Shown here one piece after another: positions 1 to 36,144 of a DNA stretch of 36,144 nucleotides. The DNA comes from a virus (taxonomy: Duplodnaviria; Heunggongvirae; Uroviricota; Caudoviricetes), in the IMG/VR virus record IMGVR_UViG_2728369608_000005. The stretch is one strand, 5' to 3'. The notes below the pieces were generated by a model, which saw nothing but the letters and a program-made list of their open reading frames with translations, did no database searches and was not told where the DNA came from. Made by a program: the position numbers and the translations under genes. Within the stretch, counting starts at the first letter, position 1. Each line of letters opens with the position of its first letter.

Positions 1-502
1 ATGGCAAACCTACCTGAAACCCCGCAGTGGGAAGAAGGCATCTACCAGATTGAGGTCTCTGACCCCGTTCTGGGCGGGCCTGACGGAATTTCTAACCGTC
101 AGGGTAAACAACTGGCCAGCCGCACGCTGTACCTGAAGCAACAGGTTGAAAAAGGCGGTTCTGACCTTGCGAAACATATCGCGGCAGCAGACCCGCATAC
201 CCAGTACGCACCGAAAGCCAGCCCGACATTCACCGGCACACCAACAGCGCCTACGCCTGCAAATAGCGATAACAGCAAGAAGCTGGCGACGACGGAGTTT
301 GTGGCCAAAGCACTTGCGGCGCTTGCAGGCAGCGCCCCTGAGACGCTGGATACGCTCAAAGAGCTGGCTGATGCCCTCGGCAACGATCCGAATTTTGCGA
401 CCACTGTGTTGAACAAGCTGGCGGAGAAGCTGGCCAAAGACCAGAACGGCGCTGATATTCCTGACCCGGCGCTCTTTGTCAAAAACCTTGGTTTGGGAGA
501 AG
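1..502. repeat. Left copy of a perfect >=502-bp inverted repeat (fibre constant region); outer limit cut by window edge
   Basis: Reverse complement of 1..502 equals 2423..2924; first mismatch at 503/2422. Confidence 0.9.
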
Positions 503-942
503 CGGCAAAACGGAATGTGGGCAACGGGGAAAACCAAATCCCTGATATGTCTTTCTGGACGGTTACTGGTGGCAATGGAAATTTTGTGATTCGTCAACCT
601 GACGGGCTAATCATTCAGATGGTTACTGTAAGTATAAGCGGTCCAGTGGCGATGAATGGAATGACTGATAATGCTTATGCCATTACAGGTTCTAATAAGT
701 CTTATATTGCCACAGCCACATTGCCCTTTGTATTTCCTAATAAGGTGCTGGGCGTTATCCCTCTGGTATCAACAACAGCTTATGGTGGTGTATCCAGTAA
801 TATTACAGGTTCATACGCGACGGCGGTTTGTTCTTTTGCCGCTGTCATGGGGAATAATACGATTGTGTTCAAAGTCGACAAACCACTGAATGCAGCCTTT
901 CCTTCAGATACCAGCGTCTCAGCGTTAATCATTGGACGGTAA
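1..942 (+). CDS. Tail fibre protein, variant A (alternative receptor-binding C-terminus)
   Basis: First 167 aa identical to the fibre at 1962..2924, then a different C-terminus encoded by visibly AT-rich DNA. Confidence 0.75.
   Translation: MANLPETPQWEEGIYQIEVSDPVLGGPDGISNRQGKQLASRTLYLKQQVEKGGSDLAKHIAAADPHTQYAPKASPTFTGTPTAPTPANSDNSKKLATTEFVAKALAALAGSAPETLDTLKELADALGNDPNFATTVLNKLAEKLAKDQNGADIPDPALFVKNLGLGEAAKRNVGNGENQIPDMSFWTVTGGNGNFVIRQPDGLIIQMVTVSISGPVAMNGMTDNAYAITGSNKSYIATATLPFVFPNKVLGVIPLVSTTAYGGVSSNITGSYATAVCSFAAVMGNNTIVFKVDKPLNAAFPSDTSVSALIIGR
476..501. promoter_or_regulatory. Candidate hix/gix-like invertase crossover site (left)
   Basis: TTGTCAAAAACC-TT-GGTTTGGGAGAA: two 12-bp half-sites around a 2-bp core, at the inner edge of the repeat. 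Confidence 0.6.
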
Positions 943-1388: not shown

Positions 1389-1965
1389 CATCCGGCGCGG
1401 TGCTGGTATCTGTTGCAGTCACCGCGTCAATGTAATCCAGCACAGCGTTAAGCCGGGTTGTTTCTGCCTGCGTCAGCTTCCGCCCGGCCTGCAATTTCAG
1501 CTGAATCAGACTAATGGAAGCCATAGCAGCATCAATCAGTGACTGGCGCCGTACTTCTGCCGCGTCTACTGCGGCGTTATGCTGTGCCTCAGTATCGGTC
1601 ACCCATTTCTCACCATCCCATTTATCGTATGACGTTAACGGGGCGATAGTGGTTGTATTTTCAGGGTAATCACCCGGAACTGTGATTTCTTTTGATTCTC
1701 CTGTTTCGGTGCTATAGACGATTTCACCGCGATGGTCTGGCACATATTCCCATGAGTTAAAATCTGCAGAACGGCAAATTGCATAACCAGCTTTATATGA
1801 GCCAGGAGCATCTAAACAGGAACATGCCGGGATACCGACACCCACAGCAAGATATTCAGTTGATGTGGAAATATATTCCCGTGTTTCACCATCATAATTA
1901 TAAACGGTAATGTCTCCGGCCTTTGTGGCGATGAGTTCATTATTTAATACAGCTTTACTTATCAT
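1360..1965 (-). CDS. Tail fibre assembly chaperone (Tfa), cognate to variant B
   Basis: C-terminal Tfa signature LDYIDAVTATDTSTAPDVIWPELP; overlaps the start of fibre B by 4 bp. Confidence 0.8.
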   Translation of the reverse strand: MISKAVLNNELIATKAGDITVYNYDGETREYISTSTEYLAVGVGIPACSCLDAPGSYKAGYAICRSADFNSWEYVPDHRGEIVYSTETGESKEITVPGDYPENTTTIAPLTSYDKWDGEKWVTDTEAQHNAAVDAAEVRRQSLIDAAMASISLIQLKLQAGRKLTQAETTRLNAVLDYIDAVTATDTSTAPDVIWPELPEA

Positions 1966-2924
1966 GCAGCCCTCACAATATAATTAAAGGCGATGTTACG
2001 GGAGCGGGTTTCAGATGCTGTGCGAACTGAGCGAGATGCGTCGAATGTCCAGTTATAAGCGCCATAACCCTCAATAATTTCGGCTTCCTTTAGACCTGTA
2101 GATAATACTTCTTGCCCATGTTGACTAAATGGCCCTGAACTAAGTACGCCTTTAAAAAGCTGGGTACGCCCAAAAGAACCAACAATATTCTGAATTGCAT
2201 CATTCTGTGCAGATAATAAGTTACGACCAGAGTCAATCCCGCGCCCATCATCCCAGCCACGAATAAATTCACCGCGTAAATCAGGCAATTTATTTGTCGG
2301 ATAAGCCTTTGCCAGTTCCGGGTATTCTTCAGCAGAAAAAGCCGCACCGTTGCATTTCAGCCAGCCTGTTGGCGGTGTGGCTGAAGGCCATGGAACAGGC
2401 ACACCAACAGGTAATGCAGAGCCTTCTCCCAAACCAAGGTTTTTGACAAAGAGCGCCGGGTCAGGAATATCAGCGCCGTTCTGGTCTTTGGCCAGCTTCT
2501 CCGCCAGCTTGTTCAACACAGTGGTCGCAAAATTCGGATCGTTGCCGAGGGCATCAGCCAGCTCTTTGAGCGTATCCAGCGTCTCAGGGGCGCTGCCTGC
2601 AAGCGCCGCAAGTGCTTTGGCCACAAACTCCGTCGTCGCCAGCTTCTTGCTGTTATCGCTATTTGCAGGCGTAGGCGCTGTTGGTGTGCCGGTGAATGTC
2701 GGGCTGGCTTTCGGTGCGTACTGGGTATGCGGGTCTGCTGCCGCGATATGTTTCGCAAGGTCAGAACCGCCTTTTTCAACCTGTTGCTTCAGGTACAGCG
2801 TGCGGCTGGCCAGTTGTTTACCCTGACGGTTAGAAATTCCGTCAGGCCCGCCCAGAACGGGGTCAGAGACCTCAATCTGGTAGATGCCTTCTTCCCACTG
2901 CGGGGTTTCAGGTAGGTTTGCCAT
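1962..2924 (-). CDS. Tail fibre protein, variant B (tail-collar-type C-terminus), currently joined to the late operon
   Basis: Lies directly downstream of the gpI-like gene; C-terminus has Mu S / P2 H-like collar motifs (WLKCNGAAFSAEEYPELAKAYP, LPDLRGEFIRGWDDGRG). Confidence 0.85.
   Translation of the reverse strand: MANLPETPQWEEGIYQIEVSDPVLGGPDGISNRQGKQLASRTLYLKQQVEKGGSDLAKHIAAADPHTQYAPKASPTFTGTPTAPTPANSDNSKKLATTEFVAKALAALAGSAPETLDTLKELADALGNDPNFATTVLNKLAEKLAKDQNGADIPDPALFVKNLGLGEGSALPVGVPVPWPSATPPTGWLKCNGAAFSAEEYPELAKAYPTNKLPDLRGEFIRGWDDGRGIDSGRNLLSAQNDAIQNIVGSFGRTQLFKGVLSSGPFSQHGQEVLSTGLKEAEIIEGYGAYNWTFDASRSVRTASETRSRNIAFNYIVRAA
2423..2924. repeat. Right copy of the inverted repeat
   Basis: Same comparison as the left copy; the N-terminal 167 aa of both fibres are identical. 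Confidence 0.9.
2424..2449. promoter_or_regulatory. Candidate hix/gix-like invertase crossover site (right)
   Basis: TTCTCCCAAACC-AA-GGTTTTTGACAA; closely resembles Salmonella hixL as I recall it (TTCTTGAAAACCAAGGTTTTTGATAA). Confidence 0.6.
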
Positions 2925-22974: not shown

Positions 22975-23692
22975 AGCTGCCGCCCCCCCATGTCAGATAA
23001 CGGGGGGCCAGTTCGTGCAGGATGCGCTGCGGATAATGACGGTTCTCCCGCCAGTTGGCAGTGCTGCGTCCGGCATTCACCGTGGCGACATGACCAAACC
23101 AGCGGGTGCTGTCCAGCCCCTGCTGCGAGGCCAGCCTCTTGTCCCGCTGTACCCAGCCCAGACCGCCGTTATAGCCCGACAGCGTCATGGCCATACGCTC
23201 GCAGCCGTTGGCGGCGCTGACGCGCTGCCACAGCCAGCGGTCATAACTGACCAGCGCCCGGATGGCCCATGCCGGATTAAACGGCTCACGGCTGTTAAGC
23301 CCCGGCATCAGCTGGCTTATCCAGTCGGCGGTGGCGGGCATAAACTGGGCCAGCCCCTGAGCGCCAGCCGGCGAGACCGCATCAGGTCGCCAGCCGCTTT
23401 CCTGATGCAGTTGCGCGGCGAAATCGGCCACTGGCGCAGACAGTCCCCATTCAAGCCGGGCATTACGGATCACATCATCGCGATACTGCAGCGCAGCCTG
23501 CGGAGGCTGCGCTGCGCGGGCCTGACTGAAGAAGCCGCCACACCAGAGCAGCCAGACAATCACCAGGTTGCCAGCAAGCTGCCACCAGAAGCTGTATTTA
23601 TCGTTACGTGGTTCTCCGTGTCTGATGGCGGTTACGCCCAGACCAAAGGCAAGCAGGATGATGAGGGTGATTTGAGGCCAGTTCATGGTCAC
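22964..23692 (-). CDS. Endolysin, lytic-transglycosylase (SLT) type with N-terminal hydrophobic segments
   Basis: SLT motif ESGWRPDAVSPAGAQGLAQFMP; two N-terminal hydrophobic stretches. Confidence 0.75.
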   Translation of the reverse strand: MTMNWPQITLIILLAFGLGVTAIRHGEPRNDKYSFWWQLAGNLVIVWLLWCGGFFSQARAAQPPQAALQYRDDVIRNARLEWGLSAPVADFAAQLHQESGWRPDAVSPAGAQGLAQFMPATADWISQLMPGLNSREPFNPAWAIRALVSYDRWLWQRVSAANGCERMAMTLSGYNGGLGWVQRDKRLASQQGLDSTRWFGHVATVNAGRSTANWRENRHYPQRILHELAPRYLTWGGGSCVD

Positions 23693-24039
23693 AGTCCTGT
23701 TGCCACAGCCAGACAGACCGCTGCAACAATCAGTGCACGGCGGATTAACGCAGCAGAAAATACAAGGTGAAGGCCGGTCTGCACAGGGAAGCGACCATCA
23801 GCCATCAGCCTGTCATCATGCTTCAGGTACTGACCGGGACGGGCTTTGGGGAAAAGCGAACGGTCAAGCCAGTAGCCCAATACTGCCGCCAGCGTGATGA
23901 GTGACAGCTTGTAGACAACCACCGGCAGCTGCTGGGGCGATACCAGACCGATGGTGCCGAGCAGCAGCACTGAGGTCAGCAGCCAGCCGCTGAGACGTGG
24001 CTTTTTAACAGGGGGAATGAATTTTTTCAGGTTTTTCAT
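23689..24039 (-). CDS. Holin-like membrane protein
   Basis: 116 aa with 2-3 predicted transmembrane helices, first gene of the late arm; AAGGAG Shine-Dalgarno 5 nt upstream. Confidence 0.6.
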   Translation of the reverse strand: MKNLKKFIPPVKKPRLSGWLLTSVLLLGTIGLVSPQQLPVVVYKLSLITLAAVLGYWLDRSLFPKARPGQYLKHDDRLMADGRFPVQTGLHLVFSAALIRRALIVAAVCLAVATGL

Positions 24040-24170
24040 GGGTGTCTCCTTGTTGTGTGGGAGACAGCATCACAAATGTGGCGGGATACGGATTTTAAAG
24101 CGCGTTATAAGTGTTCGCAGAGGGAAGCGGCCAGAATGGTGGCACACAAAACACAGGGGAGGCAAGCACG

Positions 24171-24494
24171 ATGACTGAACCGAAACAGACCGGTCTTAAA
24201 AAAGGGTTCCTCTTTGGGATCAGAACCGGAGAGCAGAATAAAACTTACACGCTAAGCGTGGATGCCAGTTGCCCAACCGAGGCGATTGCAGAACTGAGAA
24301 ACGCGCTGACGGCGCTTGAAACGCGAAGCAGCCATTTCGCCAGCGGAGAAAACAACGTCATGATGATTGGCAATGTGGCGGCGACATCACGATATAAAGC
24401 CGTACCTAATCCTACTACTCAGTTATCCGGCGACCAACGAAGACTGGAAGCGGAATCAGCAGTTCCCAGAACGGTTCTTCCTCACCAGTCTTAA
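24171..24494 (+). CDS. Hypothetical small protein (108 aa)
   Basis: ATG preceded by GGGGAGG at 8-nt spacing; divergent from the holin; last 80 bp overlap the 188-aa gene. Confidence 0.3.
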   Translation: MTEPKQTGLKKGFLFGIRTGEQNKTYTLSVDASCPTEAIAELRNALTALETRSSHFASGENNVMMIGNVAATSRYKAVPNPTTQLSGDQRRLEAESAVPRTVLPHQS

Positions 24495-24981
24495 CCGGGG
24501 CCGCTTCTCCCGCCCAGTAAAGCCAGGCCCGGTGATATAATTCCAGCACCGGGCAATCACTGTTCAATAACCTCATATCTCCGCGATGCACCGGCTCATC
24601 TGTGATTACTTCATATATCGGTGCCGTTCTGATTTCGTCTTCGCCTCTCTCATCGGCCAGTAATGCCCGGAACTTCCTGACTTCACTCAGATGCTGACAG
24701 GCAAACAGTGACTGATAGCGGGAAGGTTTGTCAGGAAAATGGCTACGGCGAACTAACTCAAACACCAGACCGACCAGCAGACTTCTGCTGACTCCACTGT
24801 CATCTTCCATTTTAGGGCCGGGGTTATAGAGATAGTTATGACCGTGCTTGGAAAGACCATCGGGATACATCTGATGAAGGAAAGCGGCCAGCTCCGGCGC
24901 TTCAGGTTCGTATTTTCCGGTAATTACATGGCAAGGCGAAGGCAGACGATTAGCGGAATCAAGTGTGTAATACGTTCCCAT
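24415..24981 (-). CDS. Hypothetical protein (188 aa), unknown function
   Basis: ATG-initiated ORF immediately upstream of the lysis/late arm; no family recognised. Confidence 0.55.
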   Translation of the reverse strand: MGTYYTLDSANRLPSPCHVITGKYEPEAPELAAFLHQMYPDGLSKHGHNYLYNPGPKMEDDSGVSRSLLVGLVFELVRRSHFPDKPSRYQSLFACQHLSEVRKFRALLADERGEDEIRTAPIYEVITDEPVHRGDMRLLNSDCPVLELYHRAWLYWAGEAAPVKTGEEEPFWELLIPLPVFVGRRITE

Positions 24982-25224
24982 TCAGAAAACAATCCTTATC
25001 GAACAAACACTGCACGTAGGTAACACATCCAGTAAATCGCGTTAATAGAAAACAGTTATCCATAAGCCTCATCCTGACAATGAAAGAACGACCAGCCCGG
25101 TGCGGTAACACCAGGCTGGTCATCAACCCACAGGTATGCACTGTGAGCCGACCAGGGTTCAGTCAGTCTCGCGAGACCAGACTAGCCTGCCATATTTTCA
25201 CTGATTGCAAAAGGCTTACGGATA

Positions 25225-25995
25225 ATGAAAGAACAATCTTTACCCATCGTTCCATGGATTGGCGGCAAACGTCGTCTGGCTAAGCATATTCTGCCGCTGT
25301 TCCCGGCCCATACCTGCTATGTGGAGCCGTTCTGTGGGGCCGCTGCGCTCTATTTTCTTAAGACACCCAGCAAGACCGAAGTCATTAACGATATCAACGG
25401 GGAACTGGTGAACCTCTATCGGGTGGTCAAGCATCATCTGGAAGAATTTGTTCGCCAGTTCAAATGGGCGCTGGTCAGCCGTCAGATTTACAAATGGTTG
25501 CAGGATACGCCGGAAGAAACTCTCACCGACATTCAGCGGGCGGCCCGGTTCTACTACCTGCAGAAACAGGCGTTTGGCGGCAAGGTGGCCGATCACTCGT
25601 TCGGAACCTCCACCACAAGTGCGCCGCGCTTTAACCTCCTGCGCATCGAAGAAGAACTGTCGATGGCACACCTGCGCCTGTCGAGAACGCTGATAGAGCA
25701 TCTGGACTGGCACCAGTGCATAGAGCGATATGATCGCCCGCATACGCTGTTCTACTGTGACCCACCATACTGGGGAACAGAGGGCTATGGTGTGGAGTTC
25801 GGGCTGGAAAACTATGATCACATGGCAGATTTAGCGCGAAGGATCAAAGGGAAGATGATTATATCAGTGAACGATATCCCGGAAATGCGGCAGGTATTCA
25901 ACGGTCTGAACATGCAGTCGGTTGATATCAGCTACAACCTTAAGGTAACAGGTAAACCCAGCCCGAAGAAAGAGCTGGTAATTTGTAATTTTTGA
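25225..25995 (+). CDS. DNA adenine methyltransferase, Dam family, no adjacent restriction gene
   Basis: N-terminal PWIGGKRRL and FCGAAALYF motifs and catalytic DPPY (FYCDPPYWGT). Confidence 0.85.
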   Translation: MKEQSLPIVPWIGGKRRLAKHILPLFPAHTCYVEPFCGAAALYFLKTPSKTEVINDINGELVNLYRVVKHHLEEFVRQFKWALVSRQIYKWLQDTPEETLTDIQRAARFYYLQKQAFGGKVADHSFGTSTTSAPRFNLLRIEEELSMAHLRLSRTLIEHLDWHQCIERYDRPHTLFYCDPPYWGTEGYGVEFGLENYDHMADLARRIKGKMIISVNDIPEMRQVFNGLNMQSVDISYNLKVTGKPSPKKELVICNF

Positions 25996-26008
25996 AAGAG
26001 GTAGTTAA

Positions 26009-26036
26009 AGGTGGTGGTGCATCTGCAGCACCACCT
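26009..26036. terminator. Hairpin between convergent Dam and lipoprotein genes (possible bidirectional terminator)
   Basis: AGGTGGTGGTGCA / TGCAGCACCACCT, 13-bp stem with one mismatch; weak T-tracts on both sides. Confidence 0.4.
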
Positions 26037-26042
26037 AAACAT

Positions 26043-26576
26043 TTAATCCTGCCTTGGACAAGTCCAATAATCATTATCTGGCTCTGGTGAATAAGCTTTC
26101 AAACAACCTGCTCGCGGGGTCTTACCATCATCTGTCATAGGAACTTTTTCCTTATCAAGTTTCACGGTCAGGTCTCCACCAGGAACATCCGTTTTATCGA
26201 AAAAAACAGCCTGACATGCTGATTTAGATATTTTCACTTCGTGGGCATTATTTGATATGAACAAATAACAATTATGACCAGAGGCTATGTAGTCACTTGG
26301 AATATTATTTTCGTCTTTAATATGAAACTGCACCGTTGTCACCGGGCGTTCGCTATCCTCGGATACTTCGACTTTTTCAAAACTGTCCGCGTACTTATCC
26401 AGGCCGGGGAGTTGTTGGCGAATAAACGGTAATTCGCGATTTACAACCGGATTATCTGTTTCAACGCTAAAAACCGCGTGCTCCTTAGCTGTGGTGGACG
26501 TATCAGCAGGATCGGTATTATCTCCACACCCAGATAAAACAAATATCAACGGTAAAAATAATTTGCGCATAGTCAT
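26043..26576 (-). CDS. Lipoprotein moron (candidate lysogenic-conversion / superinfection-exclusion protein)
   Basis: Signal peptide with lipobox LSGC; gene visibly AT-rich versus surrounding phage DNA; 35 bp downstream of the repressor on the same strand. Second ATG at 26570 has better Shine-Dalgarno spacing. Confidence 0.75.
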   Translation of the reverse strand: MTMRKLFLPLIFVLSGCGDNTDPADTSTTAKEHAVFSVETDNPVVNRELPFIRQQLPGLDKYADSFEKVEVSEDSERPVTTVQFHIKDENNIPSDYIASGHNCYLFISNNAHEVKISKSACQAVFFDKTDVPGGDLTVKLDKEKVPMTDDGKTPRAGCLKAYSPEPDNDYWTCPRQD

Positions 26577-26611
26577 GTCCTTATACCTCTAATGTTCTTA
26601 ATAGGAACAGA

Positions 26612-27022
26612 TTAACCCGTATTTTTTAATCTTTCGAACGCTGCGGACAGCTCCTTAAGCTGTTTTTCCATATCAATCATTCGCTGTTTTTCCTCAGCGC
26701 CTCGCAGCAACTCTTTTCGCACCTCTGGCTCCAGTTGGTTGAGCAGCTCCAATAACTTCAGATCAGACTGGTTGAAATGCTGCTCCTGATTAGCTGGCTG
26801 TGCTTTCTCTACCCCAACAGCTTCCCCTTTACCAGTAAGTAGCCAATCTATTGATATGTTCAAATGGGTGCTTAGCGCAACAAGAGCCTCTGCATTAGGT
26901 TCTCTCTCTCCACGCAGATAGTTTTGAAGTGAGCGATATGGAATTTTTGACAAGTCTGACAATGCCTTAATTGTCAGACCCTTAGCATCCATCGCTTCGC
27001 GCAATCTCTCTTTTATACTCAT
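26612..27022 (-). CDS. Phage repressor, XRE-family HTH
   Basis: Internal ATG at 27022 (MSIKERLREAMDAKGLTIKALSDLSKIPYRSLQNYLRGER, 136 aa); divergent from the early operon. Confidence 0.75.
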   Translation of the reverse strand: MSIKERLREAMDAKGLTIKALSDLSKIPYRSLQNYLRGEREPNAEALVALSTHLNISIDWLLTGKGEAVGVEKAQPANQEQHFNQSDLKLLELLNQLEPEVRKELLRGAEEKQRMIDMEKQLKELSAAFERLKNTG

Positions 27023-27038
27023 TTGAACATATCTCAAT

Positions 27039-27066
27039 TTGACATACCCGTTTGGGTGCGTACAAT
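27039..27066 (+). promoter_or_regulatory. Candidate early promoter (sigma-70 type) for the ner-A-B operon
   Basis: TTGACA (27039..27044), 16-bp spacer, TACAAT (27061..27066); AGGAA Shine-Dalgarno 10 nt before the ATG at 27111. Confidence 0.5.
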
Positions 27067-27110
27067 AGACCCAATAGAGTACATCATAACCCAACAGGAA
27101 CACGGTGCAT

Positions 27111-27335
27111 ATGAACAAACAACAAGTTCGGGCACGGCTGGTTGAAAGAGGCAGTAGCTTGCGCCAGTTCGCGCTTAACGCGGGCTATGAGCCACGAACA
27201 GTCACCCAGGCTGTCAGCCGCTGGGCAGGCAAAAGCGAACTTCCACGCGGTCGTTTGACTTATCGGATTTTGCGAGACCTTTCGGTCGCAATAGGCAAAG
27301 AAGTTACCCCCGGCATCCTCAAGGAGGCGTCATGA
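27111..27335 (+). CDS. ner: Ner-like DNA-binding protein
   Basis: 74 aa; LRQFALNAGYEPRTVTQAV pattern resembles Mu Ner; first gene of the early operon. Confidence 0.65.
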   Translation: MNKQQVRARLVERGSSLRQFALNAGYEPRTVTQAVSRWAGKSELPRGRLTYRILRDLSVAIGKEVTPGILKEAS

Positions 27336-28558: not shown

Positions 28559-30328
28559 ATGAGTGCCGCCCTGACTGAACGACTGGTTTATGTTGCCCGC
28601 GCGGCACGTGACGCGGGGCATGGTAAGCGTGGTGCGATATATGATGCCGCCTGCGCCGAACTGGGCATTTCCCGCGCCACCCTGCTGCGCAAGCTGAAGG
28701 AGGTATCAGTGACTGACAAACGTAAAAAACGCGCCGATGCCGGGCGCAGTGCCCTGAGCCGCGACGAAGCCGCGCTGATATCTGCCACGCTGCGCGAGGC
28801 CACCCGTAAGAACGGTAAGCGCCTGTATTCCATCGCGGATGCGGTGGAGACCCTGCGGTCAAACGGCTTTATCACTGCTGGCAGAACGGACGAGGCCACA
28901 GGCGAGTTTTTCCCGCTGTCCGAGGACACCATCAGCCGCGCCCTGCGGAACTATGGTCTGCACCCGGAACAGCTTGACGCACCGGCCCCGTCGTCCGAGA
29001 TGGCCAGCCTGCATCCCAATCACGTCTGGGAGATTGATGCCTCACTTTGTACGCTTTACTACCTGAGCAACGGCCATAAAGGGTTGCAGGTGATGGACAG
29101 CTCGAAGTTCTACAAGAACAAGCCTGCCAACATCGCCCGCATCGCCAGTGACCGCGTGTGGAGTTACGAGATTACCGACCATACCAGCGGCTGGATTTAC
29201 GTTGAGTACGTGATGGGTGCGGAATCTGGTGAGAACCTCTGTTCTGTGCTTATCAACGCCATGCAGGAGCGCGGCGGCGCGGACGTGCTGCACGGCGTGC
29301 CGAAAATACTCTACCTTGATCCCGGTTCGGCGAACACCGCTGGCATGACGAAAAACATGTGCCGCTCGCTGGGCATCAATCTGATAGCGCACAAGCCGCA
29401 TAACGCCCGCGCCACCGGGCAGGTGGAAAAGGCCCGTGACATTATCGAACGTAAACTGGAGCCGGGTCTCAAATTCCAGCCGGTTCATAGCCTGGACGAA
29501 CTGAACGCGCTGGCGGTGAAATGGCGCAGCCACTTTAACGCCACGGCGGTCCACAGCCGCCACGGTAAAACCCGCACGGATATCTGGCTGAAGATTACTG
29601 CTGGCCAGCTGAAAAAAGCGCCATCCGTTGAGGTTTGCCGCGAACTGGCGGTGGCCGCACCGGAACTCCGTAAGGTCACACCAAAACTGCGCGTCTCGTT
29701 CCGGGGCAATGAGTTTGACGTTTCGACGGTACCGGGCGTACTGGTCGGCGAAAAACTGATGATTACCCGTAACCCGTGGCGCAGCGATGTGGCGCAGGTG
29801 GTGCTGACCGGTGAGGACGGTCACGAGACGTTCTTCCTAGTCGAGGAGGTCAGAAAGAACGAGTTCGGCTTTGCCGAAAGCGCGGCGGTATTTGGCGAAA
29901 ACTACAAAGCCCTGCCGGAGACCCCGGCGCAGACGGCGGCAAAAGAAATCGAAGAGCTGGTTACGGGCACCGATAACGCCACCGATGCAGCTGCTGCACG
30001 CAAGGCGAAGGCGCTGCCGTTCGGCGGGCGACTTGACCCGTACAAACATATCGACGACACCACGCTTCCGGCCTATATGCCGAAGCGCGGTCAGGCTTCA
30101 GACGTGCGCGGGCCGCGTATTGAGCAGCGTCCGCTGACCCATGTGGAGGCGGCGAAAGCCCTGCGCGAGAAGTTTGGCGCTAACGGCCATATCTGGACGC
30201 CGGAACATTACCGCCAGTTAACGGCACAGTACCCGGACGGCGTACCGGAAGCCGCTCTGGATGAGGTCATGGTCACCCTGACCACTCCGGCCCGCAACAG
30301 CGTTATCAGCATCGTTAACGGTAACTGA
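28559..30328 (+). CDS. DDE transposase (Mu A-like function)
   Basis: 589 aa; candidate DDE residues in HVWEIDAS, LYLDPGSANT and a downstream Glu; followed by the B-like ATPase. Confidence 0.8.
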   Translation: MSAALTERLVYVARAARDAGHGKRGAIYDAACAELGISRATLLRKLKEVSVTDKRKKRADAGRSALSRDEAALISATLREATRKNGKRLYSIADAVETLRSNGFITAGRTDEATGEFFPLSEDTISRALRNYGLHPEQLDAPAPSSEMASLHPNHVWEIDASLCTLYYLSNGHKGLQVMDSSKFYKNKPANIARIASDRVWSYEITDHTSGWIYVEYVMGAESGENLCSVLINAMQERGGADVLHGVPKILYLDPGSANTAGMTKNMCRSLGINLIAHKPHNARATGQVEKARDIIERKLEPGLKFQPVHSLDELNALAVKWRSHFNATAVHSRHGKTRTDIWLKITAGQLKKAPSVEVCRELAVAAPELRKVTPKLRVSFRGNEFDVSTVPGVLVGEKLMITRNPWRSDVAQVVLTGEDGHETFFLVEEVRKNEFGFAESAAVFGENYKALPETPAQTAAKEIEELVTGTDNATDAAAARKAKALPFGGRLDPYKHIDDTTLPAYMPKRGQASDVRGPRIEQRPLTHVEAAKALREKFGANGHIWTPEHYRQLTAQYPDGVPEAALDEVMVTLTTPARNSVISIVNGN

Positions 30329-32484: not shown

Positions 32485-32673
32485 ATGTCCATCAAATGTA
32501 CCAACTGCCAGAAAGGTATCACCACCCTGAAGTTCAGCGACGCCAGCGTCATTACCTCCGGTAAGTACCGTGTGCCAGCCGTCCTCATCACGCTGGTATG
32601 CCCTCACTGCAGCCAGCATTACTACACCGAAGTTCCGGCCATGGAGTTCATCCCCTGCGAGGCAAAAAAATGA
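32485..32673 (+). CDS. Small zinc-ribbon protein
   Basis: 62 aa with CxxC (CTNC) ... CxxC (CPHC). Confidence 0.55.
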   Translation: MSIKCTNCQKGITTLKFSDASVITSGKYRVPAVLITLVCPHCSQHYYTEVPAMEFIPCEAKK

Positions 32674-34071: not shown

Positions 34072-34489
34072 GCAGCGTCTTATTCAACTCATCCATATTG
34101 CCCGCAATGACCTCCAGATGGATGAGGACACCTACCGCCAGATGCTACAGGGGCTGACCGGCAAAGCCTCAACCAAAGGGATGGATACCCCACAGCTAAA
34201 CCGCGTGCTGGAATCCATGAAAAATAAAGGCTTTCGCATTAAGCCTGCCGGGAAAGCCAAGTCCGGCTTACCGCTGGATAGTCATCCGCAGTCAAAGAAA
34301 ATCCGTGCGCTATGGCTTGAAATGGCTGCCGCAGGCATCGTCCGAGACAGTTCAGAGCAGGCGCTGGCGCTGTGGGTTAAACGGGAAACAGGCATCAGCG
34401 CGTTACGCTGGCTCAGCAATGAGCAGGCAAGTAGCGTGATTGAGAAACTGAAGAAGTGGCAGCGCAGAGCTGCGGGAGTGAAGCAATGA
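34061..34489 (+). CDS. gemA: GemA-like regulatory protein (Mu gp16-like)
   Basis: ATG at 34061 after AGGAG; RLIQLIHIARNDLQMDEDTYRQML ... KKIRALW ... ALRWLSNEQASSVIEKLKKWQ. Confidence 0.75.
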   Translation: MMTKQRLIQLIHIARNDLQMDEDTYRQMLQGLTGKASTKGMDTPQLNRVLESMKNKGFRIKPAGKAKSGLPLDSHPQSKKIRALWLEMAAAGIVRDSSEQALALWVKRETGISALRWLSNEQASSVIEKLKKWQRRAAGVKQ

Positions 34490-34875
34490 GTGACCTGAAT
34501 CAGTTTCGTAGTAAAGGGCCGGAACTGTTGGTAGAACTGGCACAGCATACCTCTGAGACCGTCCGCGAGATTATTGATATCGAACCCGCAGTTGCCGACC
34601 AGATTGGTCAGGCCGTCGCGAACCGCATGATGCAGGTCTGGGGTGGGCAAAACGTCTATTTTCCGATGGGCATGGTCTGGAAGGTCAGTCAGCGCGACCG
34701 GGAAATCTTCCTGGAGTTTGACGGACGCAACCATCACGAACTGGCCCGCAAATTCGGTGTTTCACTACAGTGGGTTTACAGCGTGGTGAAGCGGGTCAGA
34801 AAAGAAGAATTGGATCGGATGCAGGGCAAACTGTTTGATGGTGACTCTGATTCAGAGAAGGTGGAAAATAGCTAA
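34486..34875 (+). CDS. mor: Mor/C-family transcriptional activator
   Basis: 129 aa from the ATG at 34486; GGQNVYFP ... REIFLEFDGRNHHELARKFGVSLQWVYSVVKRVR. Confidence 0.75.
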   Translation: MSDLNQFRSKGPELLVELAQHTSETVREIIDIEPAVADQIGQAVANRMMQVWGGQNVYFPMGMVWKVSQRDREIFLEFDGRNHHELARKFGVSLQWVYSVVKRVRKEELDRMQGKLFDGDSDSEKVENS

Positions 34876-35363: not shown

Positions 35364-36144
35364 GGCGGCGAAAGTGGGCGGCATTGTTGCCAACAACACC
35401 TATCCGGCAGATTTCATCTACCAGAACATGATGATTGAGAGCAACATCATTCACGCCGCGCATCAGAACGACGTGAACAAACTGCTGTTTCTCGGATCGT
35501 CCTGTATCTACCCGAAACTGGCAAAACAGCCGATGGCAGAAAGCGAGTTATTGCAGGGTACGCTGGAGCCGACTAACGAGCCTTATGCTATTGCCAAAAT
35601 CGCCGGGATCAAACTGTGCGAATCTTACAACCGCCAGTATGGACGCGATTATCGCTCGGTCATGCCGACCAACCTGTATGGCCCGCATGACAACTTCCAC
35701 CCGAGTAATTCGCATGTGATCCCTGCATTGCTGCGTCGCTTCCACGAGGCGACGGCACAGAATGCACCGGACGTGGTGGTGTGGGGCAGCGGTACACCGA
35801 TGCGCGAATTTCTGCACGTCGATGATATGGCGGCGGCGAGCATTCATGTGATGGAGCTGGCGCACGAAGTCTGGCTGGAGAACACCCAACCGATGCTGTC
35901 GCACATTAACGTCGGCACGGGCGTTGACTGCACTATCCGCGAGCTGGCGCAAACCATCGCCAAAGTGGTGGGTTACAAAGGTCGGGTGGTTTTTGATGCC
36001 AGTAAACCGGATGGTACACCGCGCAAACTGCTGGATGTGACACGCCTGCATCAGCTTGGCTGGTATCACGAAATCTCACTGGAAGCGGGGCTCGCCAGCA
36101 CTTACCAGTGGTTCCTTGAGAATCAAGACCGCTTTCGGGGGTAA
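35364..36144 (+). pseudogene. fcl: GDP-L-fucose synthase gene, 5'-truncated by the prophage insertion
   Basis: Reading frame from 35365 encodes [26 protein letters not shown]... to the C-terminus ...[11 protein letters not shown]; the N-terminal ~62 codons are absent from the window. Confidence 0.85.

What the first reader, a model, noticed from the sequence alone, without database searches (positions are those of the whole stretch)
25225..25995. Orphan Dam-type adenine methyltransferase between the two arms
A clear Dam-family enzyme (DPPY motif) has no adjacent restriction endonuclease. Phage-borne orphan methyltransferases commonly protect phage DNA from host restriction or modulate gene expression.
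Basis: partly seen in the sequence, partly recalled or inferred. Interest (0 to 1): 0.4.

Follow-up and report, generated by a model that had tools for sequence, protein, structure and literature searches.

The report
Prophage DNA methylase with RNA switch
The gene is a real, solitary DNA methyltransferase carried by a Mu-like (BcepMu-type) prophage, ordinary in itself, but its target sequence is probably not proven to be the classical Dam site and it is preceded by a conserved, previously uncatalogued RNA leader that appears to hide or expose its ribosome-binding site.

Summary
Observation confirmed: 25225..25995 (+) is an intact 256-aa D12-class (alpha-group, DPPY) DNA methyltransferase lying between the leftward late arm and the rightward early arm of a BcepMu-like transposable prophage, with no restriction enzyme anywhere in the window. 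It is under strong purifying selection (dN/dS 0.04-0.09) and occupies the same slot in Bcepmuvirus prophages of at least ten enterobacterial genera. 'Dam-type' holds only for the fold. The EcoDam residues that read GATC are not conserved, the recognition hairpin is shorter, and a D12 structural relative (M.CbeI) is an N4-cytosine enzyme. The 85%-identical M.EcoMIV of E. coli ST131 is reported as barely transcribed in the lysogen, with no motif assigned. New here: about 100 nt upstream form a conserved structured leader, absent from Rfam 15. In it, CUGUG pairs either with CACAG (hairpin H2) or, as CUGUGAGCC, with GGCUUACGG at the Shine-Dalgarno. Both helices covary, including three-way changes. 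The leader accompanies this methylase in 37 of 78 sources searched; in 16 other loci a Mu Com-like zinc-ribbon ORF sits there instead. Best reading: a lytic-phase, translationally gated anti-restriction methylase working on mom-like logic. The enzyme is ordinary; the leader is a candidate new regulatory RNA.

The parts
25225..25995 (+). Solitary alpha-class D12 DNA methyltransferase, 256 aa. The AdoMet motif EPFCGAAA is residues 34-41, DPPY is residues 179-182, and the short recognition hairpin is about residues 117-135.
25119..25230 (+). Structured 5' leader of the methylase mRNA (covariance model R1 match, 121 bits). It holds H2, H3, H4 and the Shine-Dalgarno-sequestering helix.
   Evidence: no Rfam family
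25129..25145 (+). Hairpin H2: CACAG (25129-25133), a 7-nt loop, CTGTG (25141-25145). This is the 'anti-sequestor'. Its 3' arm is shared with the sequestering helix.
   Evidence: 97.9% of cells paired, 3 of 5 pairs with changes on both sides; per-pair counts
25141..25149 (+). 5' strand of the sequestering helix (CTGTGAGCC). It pairs with 25213-25221.
   Evidence: 93.9% paired against 20-47% when partners are slid; 5 pairs with changes on both sides against 0-1; paired 93.7% on the + strand against 81.5% on the minus strand
25213..25221 (+). 3' strand of the sequestering helix (GGCTTACGG). It includes the GG of the Shine-Dalgarno AAAAGG (25209-25214) and ends 3 nt before the ATG at 25225.
25155..25188 (+). 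Hairpin H3 (arms 25155-25169 and 25174-25188). Its length varies and it covaries strongly.
25195..25211 (+). Hairpin H4 (TTTTCA and TGCAAA) immediately 5' of the Shine-Dalgarno. It is weak in the window itself, with one mismatch.
25090..25121 (-). Hairpin H1, a 13-bp GC-rich stem (25090-25102 and 25109-25121). It pairs better on the minus strand and is followed there by UUCUUU. It is a probable leftward intrinsic terminator upstream of the late promoter.
   Evidence: terminator scan; 10 of 13 pairs with changes on both sides; minus strand more stable in 21 of 28 leaders; 92.6% against 87.2% paired
25030..25048 (+). Second, degenerate copy of the late-promoter-region motif (TAAATCGCGTTAATAG, 25033-25048). 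It forms the right border of the cargo insertion and may hold the -10 region of the methylase transcript (inference).
24090..24111 (+). Late-promoter-region motif GGATTTTAAAGCGCGTTATAAG upstream of the holin gene. In prophages without cargo, a single copy separates the divergent holin and methylase genes.
24415..24981 (-). DUF2441 cargo gene. It is a variable insert, absent from most related prophages that keep the methylase, and is not a recognisable nuclease.
26043..26576 (-). Lipoprotein-like cargo gene downstream of the repressor (signal peptide with LSGC lipobox, low G+C). It is convergent with the methylase.
26013..26035 (.). GC-rich hairpin (GGTGGTGC..GCACCACC) between the convergent stop codons of the methylase and the lipoprotein gene. 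It looks like a terminator for both.
26612..27118 (-). HTH_3/CI-type immunity repressor, transcribed leftward toward the methylase and the late genes.
23689..24039 (-). Holin, the first gene of the leftward lysis and late arm.
34486..34875 (+). Mor-family transcription activator, the candidate activator of the late promoter region (inference).

Best explanation
The gene encodes a functional, solitary alpha-class D12 DNA methyltransferase that is a conserved fixture of enterobacterial BcepMu-type transposable prophages. Its target sequence is not established, and GATC should not be assumed. It is probably kept off in the lysogen and made during lytic growth, when it would modify replicating phage DNA before packaging so that the DNA survives restriction in the next host. 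Control is at least partly translational. The mRNA leader can adopt two nearly isoenergetic folds. In one, CUGUGAGCC pairs with GGCUUACGG and buries the Shine-Dalgarno (off). In the other, the same CUGUG is held in hairpin H2 with CACAG, which frees the ribosome-binding site (on). This is the logic of phage Mu's com-mom module. Related prophages carry a Com-like zinc-ribbon gene in front of the same methylase instead of this leader. Shown here: the gene, fold, selection, synteny, solitary status, the leader's structure and covariation, and its exclusive alternation with Com. Inferred: the timing of expression, the anti-restriction role, which state is 'on', and what flips the switch.
For: Enzyme: family and fold assignments. 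dN/dS is 0.04-0.09 with synonymous sites saturated. The gene sits in the same holin-to-repressor slot in all 17 Bcepmu-type loci from Pantoea, Mixta, Buttiauxella, Trabulsiella, Serratia, Photorhabdus, Xenorhabdus, Brenneria, Klebsiella, Symbiopectobacterium and Oxalobacter, and in E. coli ST131 Phi2 and phage PhiKM. There the methylase is about as conserved as the terminase (84-88%), while the transposase is 58%. Solitary status. Silence in the lysogen: the 85%-identical M.EcoMIV is reported as transcribed far below dam, with no motif assigned, and no convincing sigma-70 promoter was found. Leader: 91% of cells paired against 33-47% when partners are slid, and 17 pairs changed on both sides against 2-8. 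On the wider alignment H2/H3/H4 are 90.6% paired against 27-46%, with 19 such pairs against 3-9. The sequestering helix was not in the model used to align the sequences; it is 93.9% paired against 20-47%, with 5 such pairs against 0-1. Position 25144 changes T to C in five sequences (L021, L025, L029, L032, L074). The segments printed show CTGCA together with GCAG in the H2 5' arm and TTGCAG in the SD box in those same sequences, and U.G intermediates occur in others. G.U pairs favour the + strand, 45 against 6 A.C. The two states differ by a median of 1.1 kcal/mol. The leader lies directly upstream of the methylase in 37 of 78 sources searched, and in none of the 16 loci that carry a Com ORF.
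Against: No expression or methylation data exist for this element itself. The lysogen data come from an 85%-identical homolog in one growth condition, and GATC methylation by it would be masked by host Dam. No Com-like protein is encoded in the window; the only zinc-ribbon ORF (32485..32673) has no significant Com match, so the trigger is unknown. H1 and, weakly, H2 and H3 fold as well or better on the minus strand, so part of the conserved block may serve leftward termination rather than the mRNA. The structure was derived from the same sequences on which it was counted, and the sequences are phylogenetically related, which inflates the shuffle statistics. In 13 of 37 leaders the H2 state is computed to be the more stable. 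An anti-restriction role is inferred by analogy only.
Confidence: 0.55

Rival explanations
1. It is a canonical GATC-specific Dam, as annotated. The phage would use it to top up GATC methylation during rapid lytic replication, for example to avoid MutH nicking or to license a phage process, as in P1, T4 and T1.
For: TIGR00571 'dam' is passed (116.6 against 114.85). The closest solved structures are the GATC enzymes EcoDam and DpnM. Public annotation calls it a Dam family methylase. A conserved basic residue (K/R120) in the hairpin could substitute for EcoDam R124 in a different register (inference).
Against: EcoDam K9, L122, R124 and P134 are not conserved, and the NVP(F/Y)GRY signature of GATC enzymes is absent from the whole family. 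The Dam equivalog model fails. The family profile scores M.CbeI, which the cited paper describes as an N4-cytosine enzyme (its GGCC site is from my memory), almost as high as DpnM (127.8 against 132.6 bits). The ST131 paper says REBASE lists the homolog as a putative asymmetric-site enzyme with no known site. GATC is depleted to 0.41 of expectation across the phage, although the same paper reports GATC depletion in ST131 prophages generally. The family is equally common in hosts I recall as lacking Dam (Burkholderia, other Betaproteobacteria, Deltaproteobacteria, Acinetobacter).
Confidence: 0.3
2. It is a lysogeny-phase epigenetic regulator. It would be expressed from the prophage to reprogram host or prophage gene expression, or to maintain lysogeny.
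For: Precedents exist. A Burkholderia prophage methylase (gp51 of phage H111-1) is reported as required to keep the phage lysogenic. The gene lies next to the immunity region.
Against: The close homolog M.EcoMIV is reported as poorly transcribed, with no new motif, in the lysogen. The leader can occlude the ribosome-binding site. The gene is divergent from, and shares a promoter region with, the late lysis operon in cargo-free prophages. Leftward repressor-operon transcription would run antisense to it (inference from gene order).
Confidence: 0.1
3. The conserved hairpins upstream are not an mRNA switch. They would be a stack of leftward terminators or insulators, or DNA-level inverted repeats bound by proteins, protecting the lysis operon from read-through from the repressor operon.
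For: H1 is terminator-like only on the minus strand. It pairs better there (92.6% against 87.2%) and is more stable there in 21 of 28 leaders. The whole region also folds well on the minus strand (z = -5.3 and -6.0). The centre of H3 is a perfect DNA palindrome in many loci.
Against: The H2-H3-H4-SD block also occurs in front of the methylase in 23 prophages of other types that lack the Bcepmu holin and repressor arrangement. It always ends at the methylase start and is never found with Com. The long-range helix spans 70 nt, includes the Shine-Dalgarno, and is 93.7% paired on the + strand against 81.5% on the minus strand, with 45 G.U against 6 A.C. H4 shows 18 G.U against 4 A.C. Indels and bulges in H3 argue against a dyad protein site. 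Both readings can hold at once: H1 as a terminator and the rest as an mRNA leader.
Confidence: 0.15
4. The methylase is half of a cryptic restriction-modification or defence pair with the adjacent DUF2441 protein or the lipoprotein.
For: The best PADLOC model is labelled as a Type II system methylase. DUF2441 has no known function.
Against: DUF2441 is absent from most prophages that keep the methylase and sits in a cargo slot bracketed by a duplicated motif. Neither neighbour matches any defence or nuclease model. The 122 nearest neighbours in 63 other loci are phage structural genes, Com and miscellaneous genes, with no endonuclease family among the 25 commonest shown.
Confidence: 0.03

Closest known systems
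M.EcoMIV (EC958_1101 / P423_04965), orphan D12 methylase on prophage Phi2 of E. coli ST131
   Same: 85% amino-acid identity. Same slot between the holin and the repressor in a Bcepmuvirus prophage. Same leader upstream (L003). Described in PMC4659465 as a prophage-borne Dam homolog.
   Different: The flanking cargo differs: IS66 and other small genes instead of DUF2441 and the lipoprotein. Its recognition site is also unknown, and it was reported as poorly transcribed in the lysogen.
E. coli Dam, DpnM and T4 Dam (GATC-specific alpha-class D12 methylases)
   Same: Same fold (TM 0.79, 0.79 and 0.70). Same motif order, with AdoMet motif I before DPPY. An aromatic residue (F117) lies at the position of the intercalating Y119.
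   Different: Only 22-24% identity to EcoDam and DpnM and 14-17% to T4 Dam in the structural alignments. The recognition hairpin is about 9 residues shorter and lacks EcoDam K9, L122, R124 and P134 and the NVP(F/Y)GRY signature. The Dam equivalog model is not met.
Phage Mu com-mom module
   Same: A DNA-modification gene of a transposable phage whose ribosome-binding site is masked by an RNA helix that must be opened. That account of Mu rests on established knowledge (Wulczyn and Kahmann 1991; Hattman 1999), recalled from memory. A Com-family zinc-ribbon ORF (PF10122) directly precedes this same methylase family in 16 of 83 loci.
   Different: The enzyme is a methyltransferase, not Mom. The gene lies in the middle of the genome, not at the right end. 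No com gene is present in the window or in any Bcepmu-type locus. Here the competing hairpin H2 is built into the leader.
Hin1523, Hia5 and Nme1821: non-specific adenine methylases of Mu-like prophages (Drozdz et al. 2012, PMC3299994)
   Same: DPPY and FxGxG methylases carried by Mu-like prophages, Dam-like by fold recognition with a divergent recognition domain, which give broad protection from restriction.
   Different: Those enzymes are much more remote from Dam: MboIA was reached only in a third PSI-BLAST iteration at 15% identity. This protein matches DpnM and EcoDam directly (E about 1e-16 and 1e-14). They replace mom at the prophage end.
Burkholderia phage phiE125 gp27 and phi1026b methylase; Vibrio VP882 and Halomonas phiHAP-1 methylases
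   Same: 63-66% identity over the full length; the closest homologs in named phages.
   Different: They sit in lambda-like siphoviruses and telomere phages, not transposable phages. From memory, Woods et al. 2002 showed N6-adenine methylation by gp27 in E. coli; the paper (PMC135171) was not held, so this is unverified.
M.CbeI (PDB 7M6B), alpha-class D12-like N4-cytosine methylase
   Same: Similar fold (TM 0.76). It is scored by the family profile almost as well as DpnM, and it has a similarly short recognition hairpin.
   Different: 21-22% identity in the structural alignment. It comes from a thermophilic Firmicute, where methylation by it is required for DNA transformation; its belonging to a restriction-modification system is from my memory. 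Its base and sequence specificity cannot be transferred.
'D12-methyl' RNA motif (Weinberg et al. 2017), recalled from memory
   Same: As I recall, a candidate cis-regulatory RNA upstream of D12-class methylase genes.
   Different: It could not be verified: the term is not in the main text held and no supplements are held. No Rfam 15 family matches the leader in the window or in five divergent loci, even at permissive thresholds, so the leader is not a detectable member of any curated family.

Membership tests
D12-class (alpha-group) DNA methyltransferases, Pfam PF02086 | Match to PF02086 above the gathering score | tested here: met
   97.4 bits against a cutoff of 22, residues 11-232
D12-class (alpha-group) DNA methyltransferases, Pfam PF02086 | AdoMet-binding motif I N-terminal to catalytic motif IV (DPPY), with the recognition region between them | tested here: met
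   EPFCGAAA at residues 34-41, DPPY at 179-182, hairpin at about 117-135; invariant G38, D179, P180, P181 and Y182 in 52 family members
D12-class (alpha-group) DNA methyltransferases, Pfam PF02086 | Dam/DpnM-like three-dimensional fold | tested here: met
   pLDDT 91.2; Foldseek TM 0.79 to EcoDam and DpnM
D12-class (alpha-group) DNA methyltransferases, Pfam PF02086 | Transfers methyl to N6 of adenine in DNA | not testable with these tools
   Needs biochemistry or methylome sequencing. M.CbeI shows that a D12/DPPY enzyme can be an N4-cytosine methylase.
Dam orthologs (GATC-specific; TIGR00571 / NF008152) | Score above the curated cutoff of the Dam subfamily model TIGR00571 | tested here: met
   116.6 against 114.85 bits, a marginal pass
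Dam orthologs (GATC-specific; TIGR00571 / NF008152) | Score above the cutoff of the Dam equivalog model NF008152 | tested here: not met
   70.4 against 441 bits
Dam orthologs (GATC-specific; TIGR00571 / NF008152) | Conservation of the residues that read GATC in EcoDam (K9, L122, R124, P134; Horton et al. 2006, from memory) and of the NVP(F/Y)GRY hairpin signature | tested here: not met
   They align to P10, K120, A122 and S132. The family consensus is FGG(K/R)V..(S)(F/Y)G, about 9 residues shorter. Caveat: these are sequence alignments only, and the hairpin is the least confident part of the model.
Dam orthologs (GATC-specific; TIGR00571 / NF008152) | Methylates GATC | not testable with these tools
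   No methylome data for this enzyme. None is assigned for homologs above 65% identity, according to PMC4659465.
Type II restriction-modification system | Cognate restriction endonuclease encoded adjacent to the methylase | tested here: not met
   No endonuclease model hit in 43 window ORFs. The neighbours have no nuclease relatives. No endonuclease family is among the 25 commonest neighbour families in 63 other loci.
Mu com-mom type translational control | Com zinc-ribbon protein (PF10122) encoded immediately upstream of the modification gene | tested here: not met
   Absent from the window and from all Bcepmu-type loci; present in 16 of 83 other loci of the same methylase family
Mu com-mom type translational control | RNA helix that sequesters the translation start region of the modification gene | tested here: met
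   A 9-bp helix, 25141-25149 with 25213-25221, covers the Shine-Dalgarno GG. It is 93.9% paired with 5 covarying pairs. This is computational support only.
Mu com-mom type translational control | The modification enzyme is Mom (acetamido-adenine) | tested here: not met
   The enzyme is a D12 methyltransferase
Non-specific adenine methylases of Mu-like prophages (Hia5 / Hin1523 family) | Sequence membership in the Hia5 family | not tested
Indirectly unlikely: that family reaches Dam-type enzymes only by iterated search, whereas this protein hits DpnM at E=3.6e-16 directly.
Any curated RNA family (Rfam 15) | Covariance-model match of the leader | tested here: not met
   No hit at gathering thresholds in the window. 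No relevant hit at E<=10 in 24000-27300 or at E<=1 in five divergent leader-bearing loci.

The most novel reading that the evidence does not exclude
The roughly 100-nt leader is a new family of bistable cis-regulatory RNA. It would gate translation of a widespread phage-borne methylase family in Gamma-, Beta- and Deltaproteobacteria, and be flipped by a so far unidentified trans factor (a phage protein functionally replacing Com) or a small molecule. The methylase it controls would have a non-GATC or relaxed specificity that gives broad anti-restriction protection. The same gating would explain why prophage methylases such as M.EcoMIV look 'silent' in methylome surveys.
Probability: 0.3. Interest if true: 0.7.

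Novelty: new variant of a known kind. Interest (0 to 1): 0.5.

Why it matters
The methylase is routine and already annotated in thousands of genomes. Two points go beyond that. First, the 'Dam' label, and hence the implied GATC specificity, is applied to this whole phage family without support from the recognition residues. Methylome and restriction-barrier predictions that rely on it may therefore be wrong. Second, the conserved two-state leader, and its strict alternation with a Com-like gene in front of the same enzyme, gives a concrete and testable mechanism for a recurring observation: prophage-encoded orphan methylases are intact and under selection, yet silent in lysogens. It also extends the com-mom logic of phage Mu to a protein-free, or differently triggered, RNA switch across many temperate phages. 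If confirmed, it would add an RNA family to the catalogue and offer a handle for switching phage self-methylation on or off, which matters for phage host range and phage engineering.

Tried and rejected
1) The other 256-aa ORF (35374..36144) as a second methylase: no similarity. By comparison with E. coli CFSAN051542 it lies in host flank antisense to napH.

2) CACAG, the H2 arm, as the enzyme's own target, based on a recalled Burkholderia m6A motif. In Burkholderia, CACAG is written by a Type III system unrelated to D12 enzymes, so this was rejected as evidence.

3) Membership of the non-specific Hia5/Hin1523 family. That family is far more distant from Dam than this protein. It is not excluded functionally, but nothing supports it.

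4) A Com-like protein elsewhere in the window. The only CxxC..CxxC ORF (32485..32673) scores E=0.014 with a home-made Com HMM, has no Pfam Com hit, and belongs to phrog_3401 of unknown function.

5) DUF2441 or the lipoprotein as a hidden endonuclease: no support.

6) Known RNA families: none match. The mir-374 hit is just the H1 hairpin scoring below threshold.

7) The shared motif TTTTAAAnnGCGTTAwwAG as a repeated late-promoter element. It occurs only at the holin promoter and beside the leader.

8) A conserved upstream ORF in the leader. The ATG at 25080 is absent from most orthologous leaders, and indels are not multiples of three.

9) Literature that could not be obtained: Woods 2002 on phiE125 gp27, Murphy 2013 review, and the supplement describing the D12-methyl motif.

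10) The first viral-contig pattern scan was too degenerate. About 17 of its 120 stretches held a close methylase homolog.

11) My first window coordinates for H2 and the sequestering helix were off by 2 nt. They were corrected.
Full report
**1. What is at the coordinates**

The ORF 25225..25995 (+) is intact: ATG to TGA, 256 aa, with FYCDPPYWG at residues 176-184.
- Family matches: Pfam PF02086 (D12-class N6-adenine DNA methyltransferase) at 97.4 bits, phrog_56 at E=6e-100, and a PADLOC Type II methylase model at 376 bits.
- Structure: an AlphaFold model built on 52 diverse homologs is confident (pLDDT 91.2, pTM 0.89). It superposes on EcoDam and DpnM (TM 0.79), M.CbeI (0.76) and T4 Dam (0.70).
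- Selection: dN/dS against seven orthologs is 0.04-0.09 where computable, with synonymous sites saturated.

**2. Context**

The window is a BcepMu-type transposable prophage.
- It is 100% identical over 24000-27200 to the record 'Klebsiella phage KP12 clone KP12_2' and to prophages in three complete E. coli genomes.
- The lysis, head and tail genes run leftward from the holin gene (23689..24039).
- The early genes run rightward from about 27105: a BcepMu gp16-like protein, an IclR-type HTH protein, DUF3102, a DDE transposase at 28559..30328, an ExeA-like ATPase, GemA and Mor.
- Between the arms lie DUF2441 (24415..24981, minus), the methylase (plus), a lipoprotein-like gene (26043..26576, minus) and the CI-type repressor (26612..27118, minus).
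- This middle stretch has lower G+C (0.43-0.51) than the arms (0.55-0.62).

**3. Is it orphan?**

Yes, as far as sequence can show.
- No restriction-endonuclease model matches any of 43 ORFs of the window.
- The two neighbours have no defence, nuclease or informative structural relatives.
- DUF2441 is missing from most related prophages that keep the methylase.
- In 17 Bcepmu-type loci, from Pantoea, Mixta, Buttiauxella, Trabulsiella, Serratia, Photorhabdus, Xenorhabdus, Brenneria, Klebsiella, Symbiopectobacterium and Oxalobacter, the methylase sits between the lysis/late arm and the immunity/early region, with the holin gene detected next to it in most. The same holds in E. coli ST131 prophage Phi2 and in phage PhiKM.
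- In Photorhabdus and Xenorhabdus the methylase is 84-86% identical to the window's. That is comparable to the terminase, while the transposase is 58% and the transglycosylase 61%.
- In 63 further loci from Beta-, Delta- and Gammaproteobacteria the gene sits in other prophage types. The 25 commonest families among its neighbours include phage structural proteins and several unrelated genes, but no endonuclease family.

**4. Is it 'Dam'?**

Only by fold.
- The Dam subfamily model TIGR00571 is passed by under 2 bits, and the Dam equivalog model fails (70 against 441 bits).
- In direct and profile alignments, the EcoDam residues that contact GATC (K9, L122, R124, P134; from my knowledge of Horton et al. 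2006) correspond to P10, K120, A122 and S132.
- The family-wide hairpin consensus, FGG(K/R)V..(S)(F/Y)G, is about nine residues shorter than YNGLCRYNLRGEFNVPFGRY of EcoDam. This hairpin is also the least confident part of the model.
- The family profile scores M.CbeI (7M6B) almost as high as DpnM (127.8 against 132.6 bits). M.CbeI is an alpha-class DPPY enzyme that methylates N4 of cytosine. D12 plus DPPY therefore does not fix the base, let alone the sequence.
- The closest studied relative is M.EcoMIV of E. coli ST131. The 82% nucleotide match in JJ1886, at the position of P423_04965, translates to 85% protein identity. The ST131 methylome paper reports that no homolog above 65% identity has a known site, that REBASE lists it as a putative asymmetric-site enzyme, that it is transcribed far below dam in the lysogen, and that no motif could be assigned to it.
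- GATC is depleted to 0.41 of expectation throughout the phage (68 observed, 164 expected). The same paper reports GATC depletion in ST131 prophages generally, so this is weak evidence.

I put GATC specificity at roughly 0.3, another defined motif at 0.5, and relaxed specificity at 0.2. These are judgements, not measurements.

**5. An unexpected conserved leader**

Aligning the region upstream of the methylase across Bcepmu-type prophages showed about 150 conserved nucleotides with compensatory substitutions, even though synonymous sites in the gene are saturated. The elements, in corrected window coordinates, are:
- H1: 25090-25102 with 25109-25121.
- H2: CACAG 25129-25133 with CTGTG 25141-25145.
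- H3: 25155-25169 with 25174-25188.
- H4: 25195-25200 with 25206-25211.
- A long-range helix: CTGTGAGCC 25141-25149 with GGCTTACGG 25213-25221. Its 3' strand includes the GG of the Shine-Dalgarno AAAAGG and ends 3 nt before the ATG.

Independent single-sequence folds from five genera recover this long-range helix. On 27 distinct leaders the full structure is 91.0% paired, against 33-47% when the partners are slid. Seventeen pairs change on both sides, against 2-8 in the slid controls.

**6. Wider distribution and a cleaner test**

I built a covariance model on H2, H3 and H4 only.
- It finds the element directly upstream of the methylase start, on the methylase strand, in 14 Bcepmu-type sources and in 23 prophages of other types, out of 78 sources searched.
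- On that alignment H2/H3/H4 are 90.6% paired against 27-46% slid, with 19 pairs changed on both sides against 3-9.
- The long-range helix was not part of the model. It is 93.9% paired against 20-47%, with 5 such pairs against 0-1.

The shared strand shows coordinated three-way change.
- Position 25144 pairs with 25130 in H2 (A-U in 32 sequences, G-C in 5) and with 25218 in the long-range helix (U-A 27, U-G 5, C-G 5).
- The five sequences with C at 25144 (L021, L025, L029, L032, L074) show CTGCA together with GCAG in the H2 5' arm and TTGCAG in the SD box in the segments printed.
- Deltaproteobacterial versions carry CACUG/CAGUG together with GGCUCAC.

The wobble pairs fix the strand. The long-range helix has 45 G.U against 6 A.C, so it is 93.7% paired on the + strand and 81.5% on the minus strand; H4 behaves the same way.

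The two mutually exclusive states are nearly isoenergetic. The median E(sequestered) minus E(H2) is -1.1 kcal/mol, and the sequestered state is lower in 24 of 37 leaders.

No Rfam 15 family matches the element in the window or in five divergent loci.

**7. H1 is different**

H1 covaries strongly: 10 of 13 pairs change on both sides. But it pairs better on the minus strand (92.6% against 87.2%; 38 A.C against 19 G.U). It is more stable there in 21 of 28 leaders, and on that strand it is followed by UUCUUU. I read it as a leftward intrinsic terminator. It would stop transcripts coming from the repressor operon, which run antisense through the methylase gene, before they reach the late promoter and the holin gene. 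This is inference from gene order.

**8. Link to Mu com-mom**

Among the nearest neighbours of this methylase in prophages that are not Bcepmuviruses, the commonest Pfam family is Zn_ribbon_Com (PF10122). A Com-like ORF (IRCGxCxRKLAEAxYxRLxIKCPRCGTLN) ends within 38 nt of, or overlaps, the methylase start in 16 of 83 loci. None of these 16 has the leader, and none of the leader-bearing loci has Com.

In phage Mu, Com binds mom mRNA and opens a translation-inhibition structure over the mom start. This is established knowledge that I am citing from memory. Mu-like prophages of Haemophilus and Neisseria carry DPPY methylases in place of mom. The leader therefore looks like an alternative solution to the same control problem. 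What flips it is unknown. The window encodes no Com homolog, and the one zinc-ribbon ORF (32485..32673) is only a weak candidate.

**9. Transcription**

No convincing sigma-70 promoter precedes the gene. In cargo-free prophages a single conserved motif, GGATTTTAAAnnGCGTTAAnAG, separates the divergent holin and methylase genes. In the window the DUF2441 cargo is bracketed by two copies, TAAAGCGCGTTATAAG at 24096 and TAAATCGCGTTAATAG at 25033. It is plausible, though untested, that the methylase is co-activated with the late operon by the Mor-family activator (34486..34875).

**10. Verdict**

The enzyme is an ordinary, already annotated, solitary phage methylase. Three points should be corrected or added:
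- GATC specificity is not supported by the recognition residues.
- A role in the lysogen is unlikely, given the silent close homolog and the built-in translational gate.
- The gene carries a conserved bistable leader, absent from Rfam, that alternates with a Com gene across phages.

The most likely mechanism is lytic-phase, translationally gated self-methylation of phage DNA for restriction evasion (confidence about 0.55). The structural existence of the leader is well supported (my estimate about 0.85). Its action as a translational switch is probable (about 0.6). Its trigger is unknown.

Noticed in passing
window 1-502 and 2423-2924: A perfect 502-bp inverted repeat encloses 1920 bp. The two arms encode identical N-terminal parts of two tail-fibre genes (1..942 + and 1962..2924 -) whose C-termini differ, with tail-fibre-assembly-like ORFs between them. 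It resembles a Mu G-segment-type invertible host-range region. The window starts exactly at the edge of the repeat, so an assembly or contig-end artefact is possible. The near-identical KP12 record has a DNA invertase at this end instead.
   Followed up: partly
window 24090-25048: The DUF2441 cargo is bracketed by two copies of a 16-nt motif: TAAAGCGCGTTATAAG at 24096 and TAAATCGCGTTAATAG at 25033. Trabulsiella has the same two copies around different cargo, and cargo-free prophages have one copy. This looks like a recurrent cargo insertion point inside the divergent late and methylase promoter region.
   Followed up: partly
window, whole; GATC sites listed: GATC is depleted to 0.41 of the Markov expectation (68 against 164) in all three parts of the prophage. 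CTAG is at 0.37. Four of the 68 GATC sites lie inside the methylase gene itself.
   Followed up: partly
window 25076-25089 and 25221-25234: The 14 nt around the methylase start codon (GATAATGAAAGAAC) are repeated at the 5' edge of the leader just before H1 (GACAATGAAAGAAC). The significance is unknown.
   Followed up: no
window 32485-32673 (+): A 62-aa early-region ORF with a CTNC...CPHC zinc ribbon (phrog_3401, function unknown). It has no significant Com match, but it is the only zinc-ribbon protein in the phage and so a candidate trans factor for the leader.
   Followed up: partly
window 26043-26576 (-) and 26013-26035: A low-G+C lipoprotein-like gene (lipobox LSGC) lies directly downstream of the repressor. 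It is probably co-transcribed with it in the lysogen and may be a superinfection-exclusion type cargo gene. A GC-rich hairpin sits between its stop codon and the methylase stop codon.
   Followed up: no
L001 (OM835952.1, 'Klebsiella phage KP12 clone KP12_2'): This public record is filed under Vequintavirinae, yet it is a BcepMu-like transposable phage 100% identical to E. coli prophages over the region compared. It is probably a co-purified induced prophage that was mislabelled.
   Followed up: no
proteins P0123, P0139, P0146, P0150, P0151, P0172, P0243: Very large proteins (about 800-2500 aa) contain two to four stretches matching this methylase. These are multi-domain methylase fusions of the kind seen on conjugative elements. 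They were not examined.
   Followed up: no
L020, L026, L030, L034, L048, L050-L053, L061, L062, L065, L072, L073, L077, L080: Com-like zinc-ribbon ORFs directly precede or overlap the start of the same methylase family in prophages, mostly betaproteobacterial to judge by the record titles. I did not test whether their mRNAs also contain a start-site-sequestering helix.
   Followed up: partly
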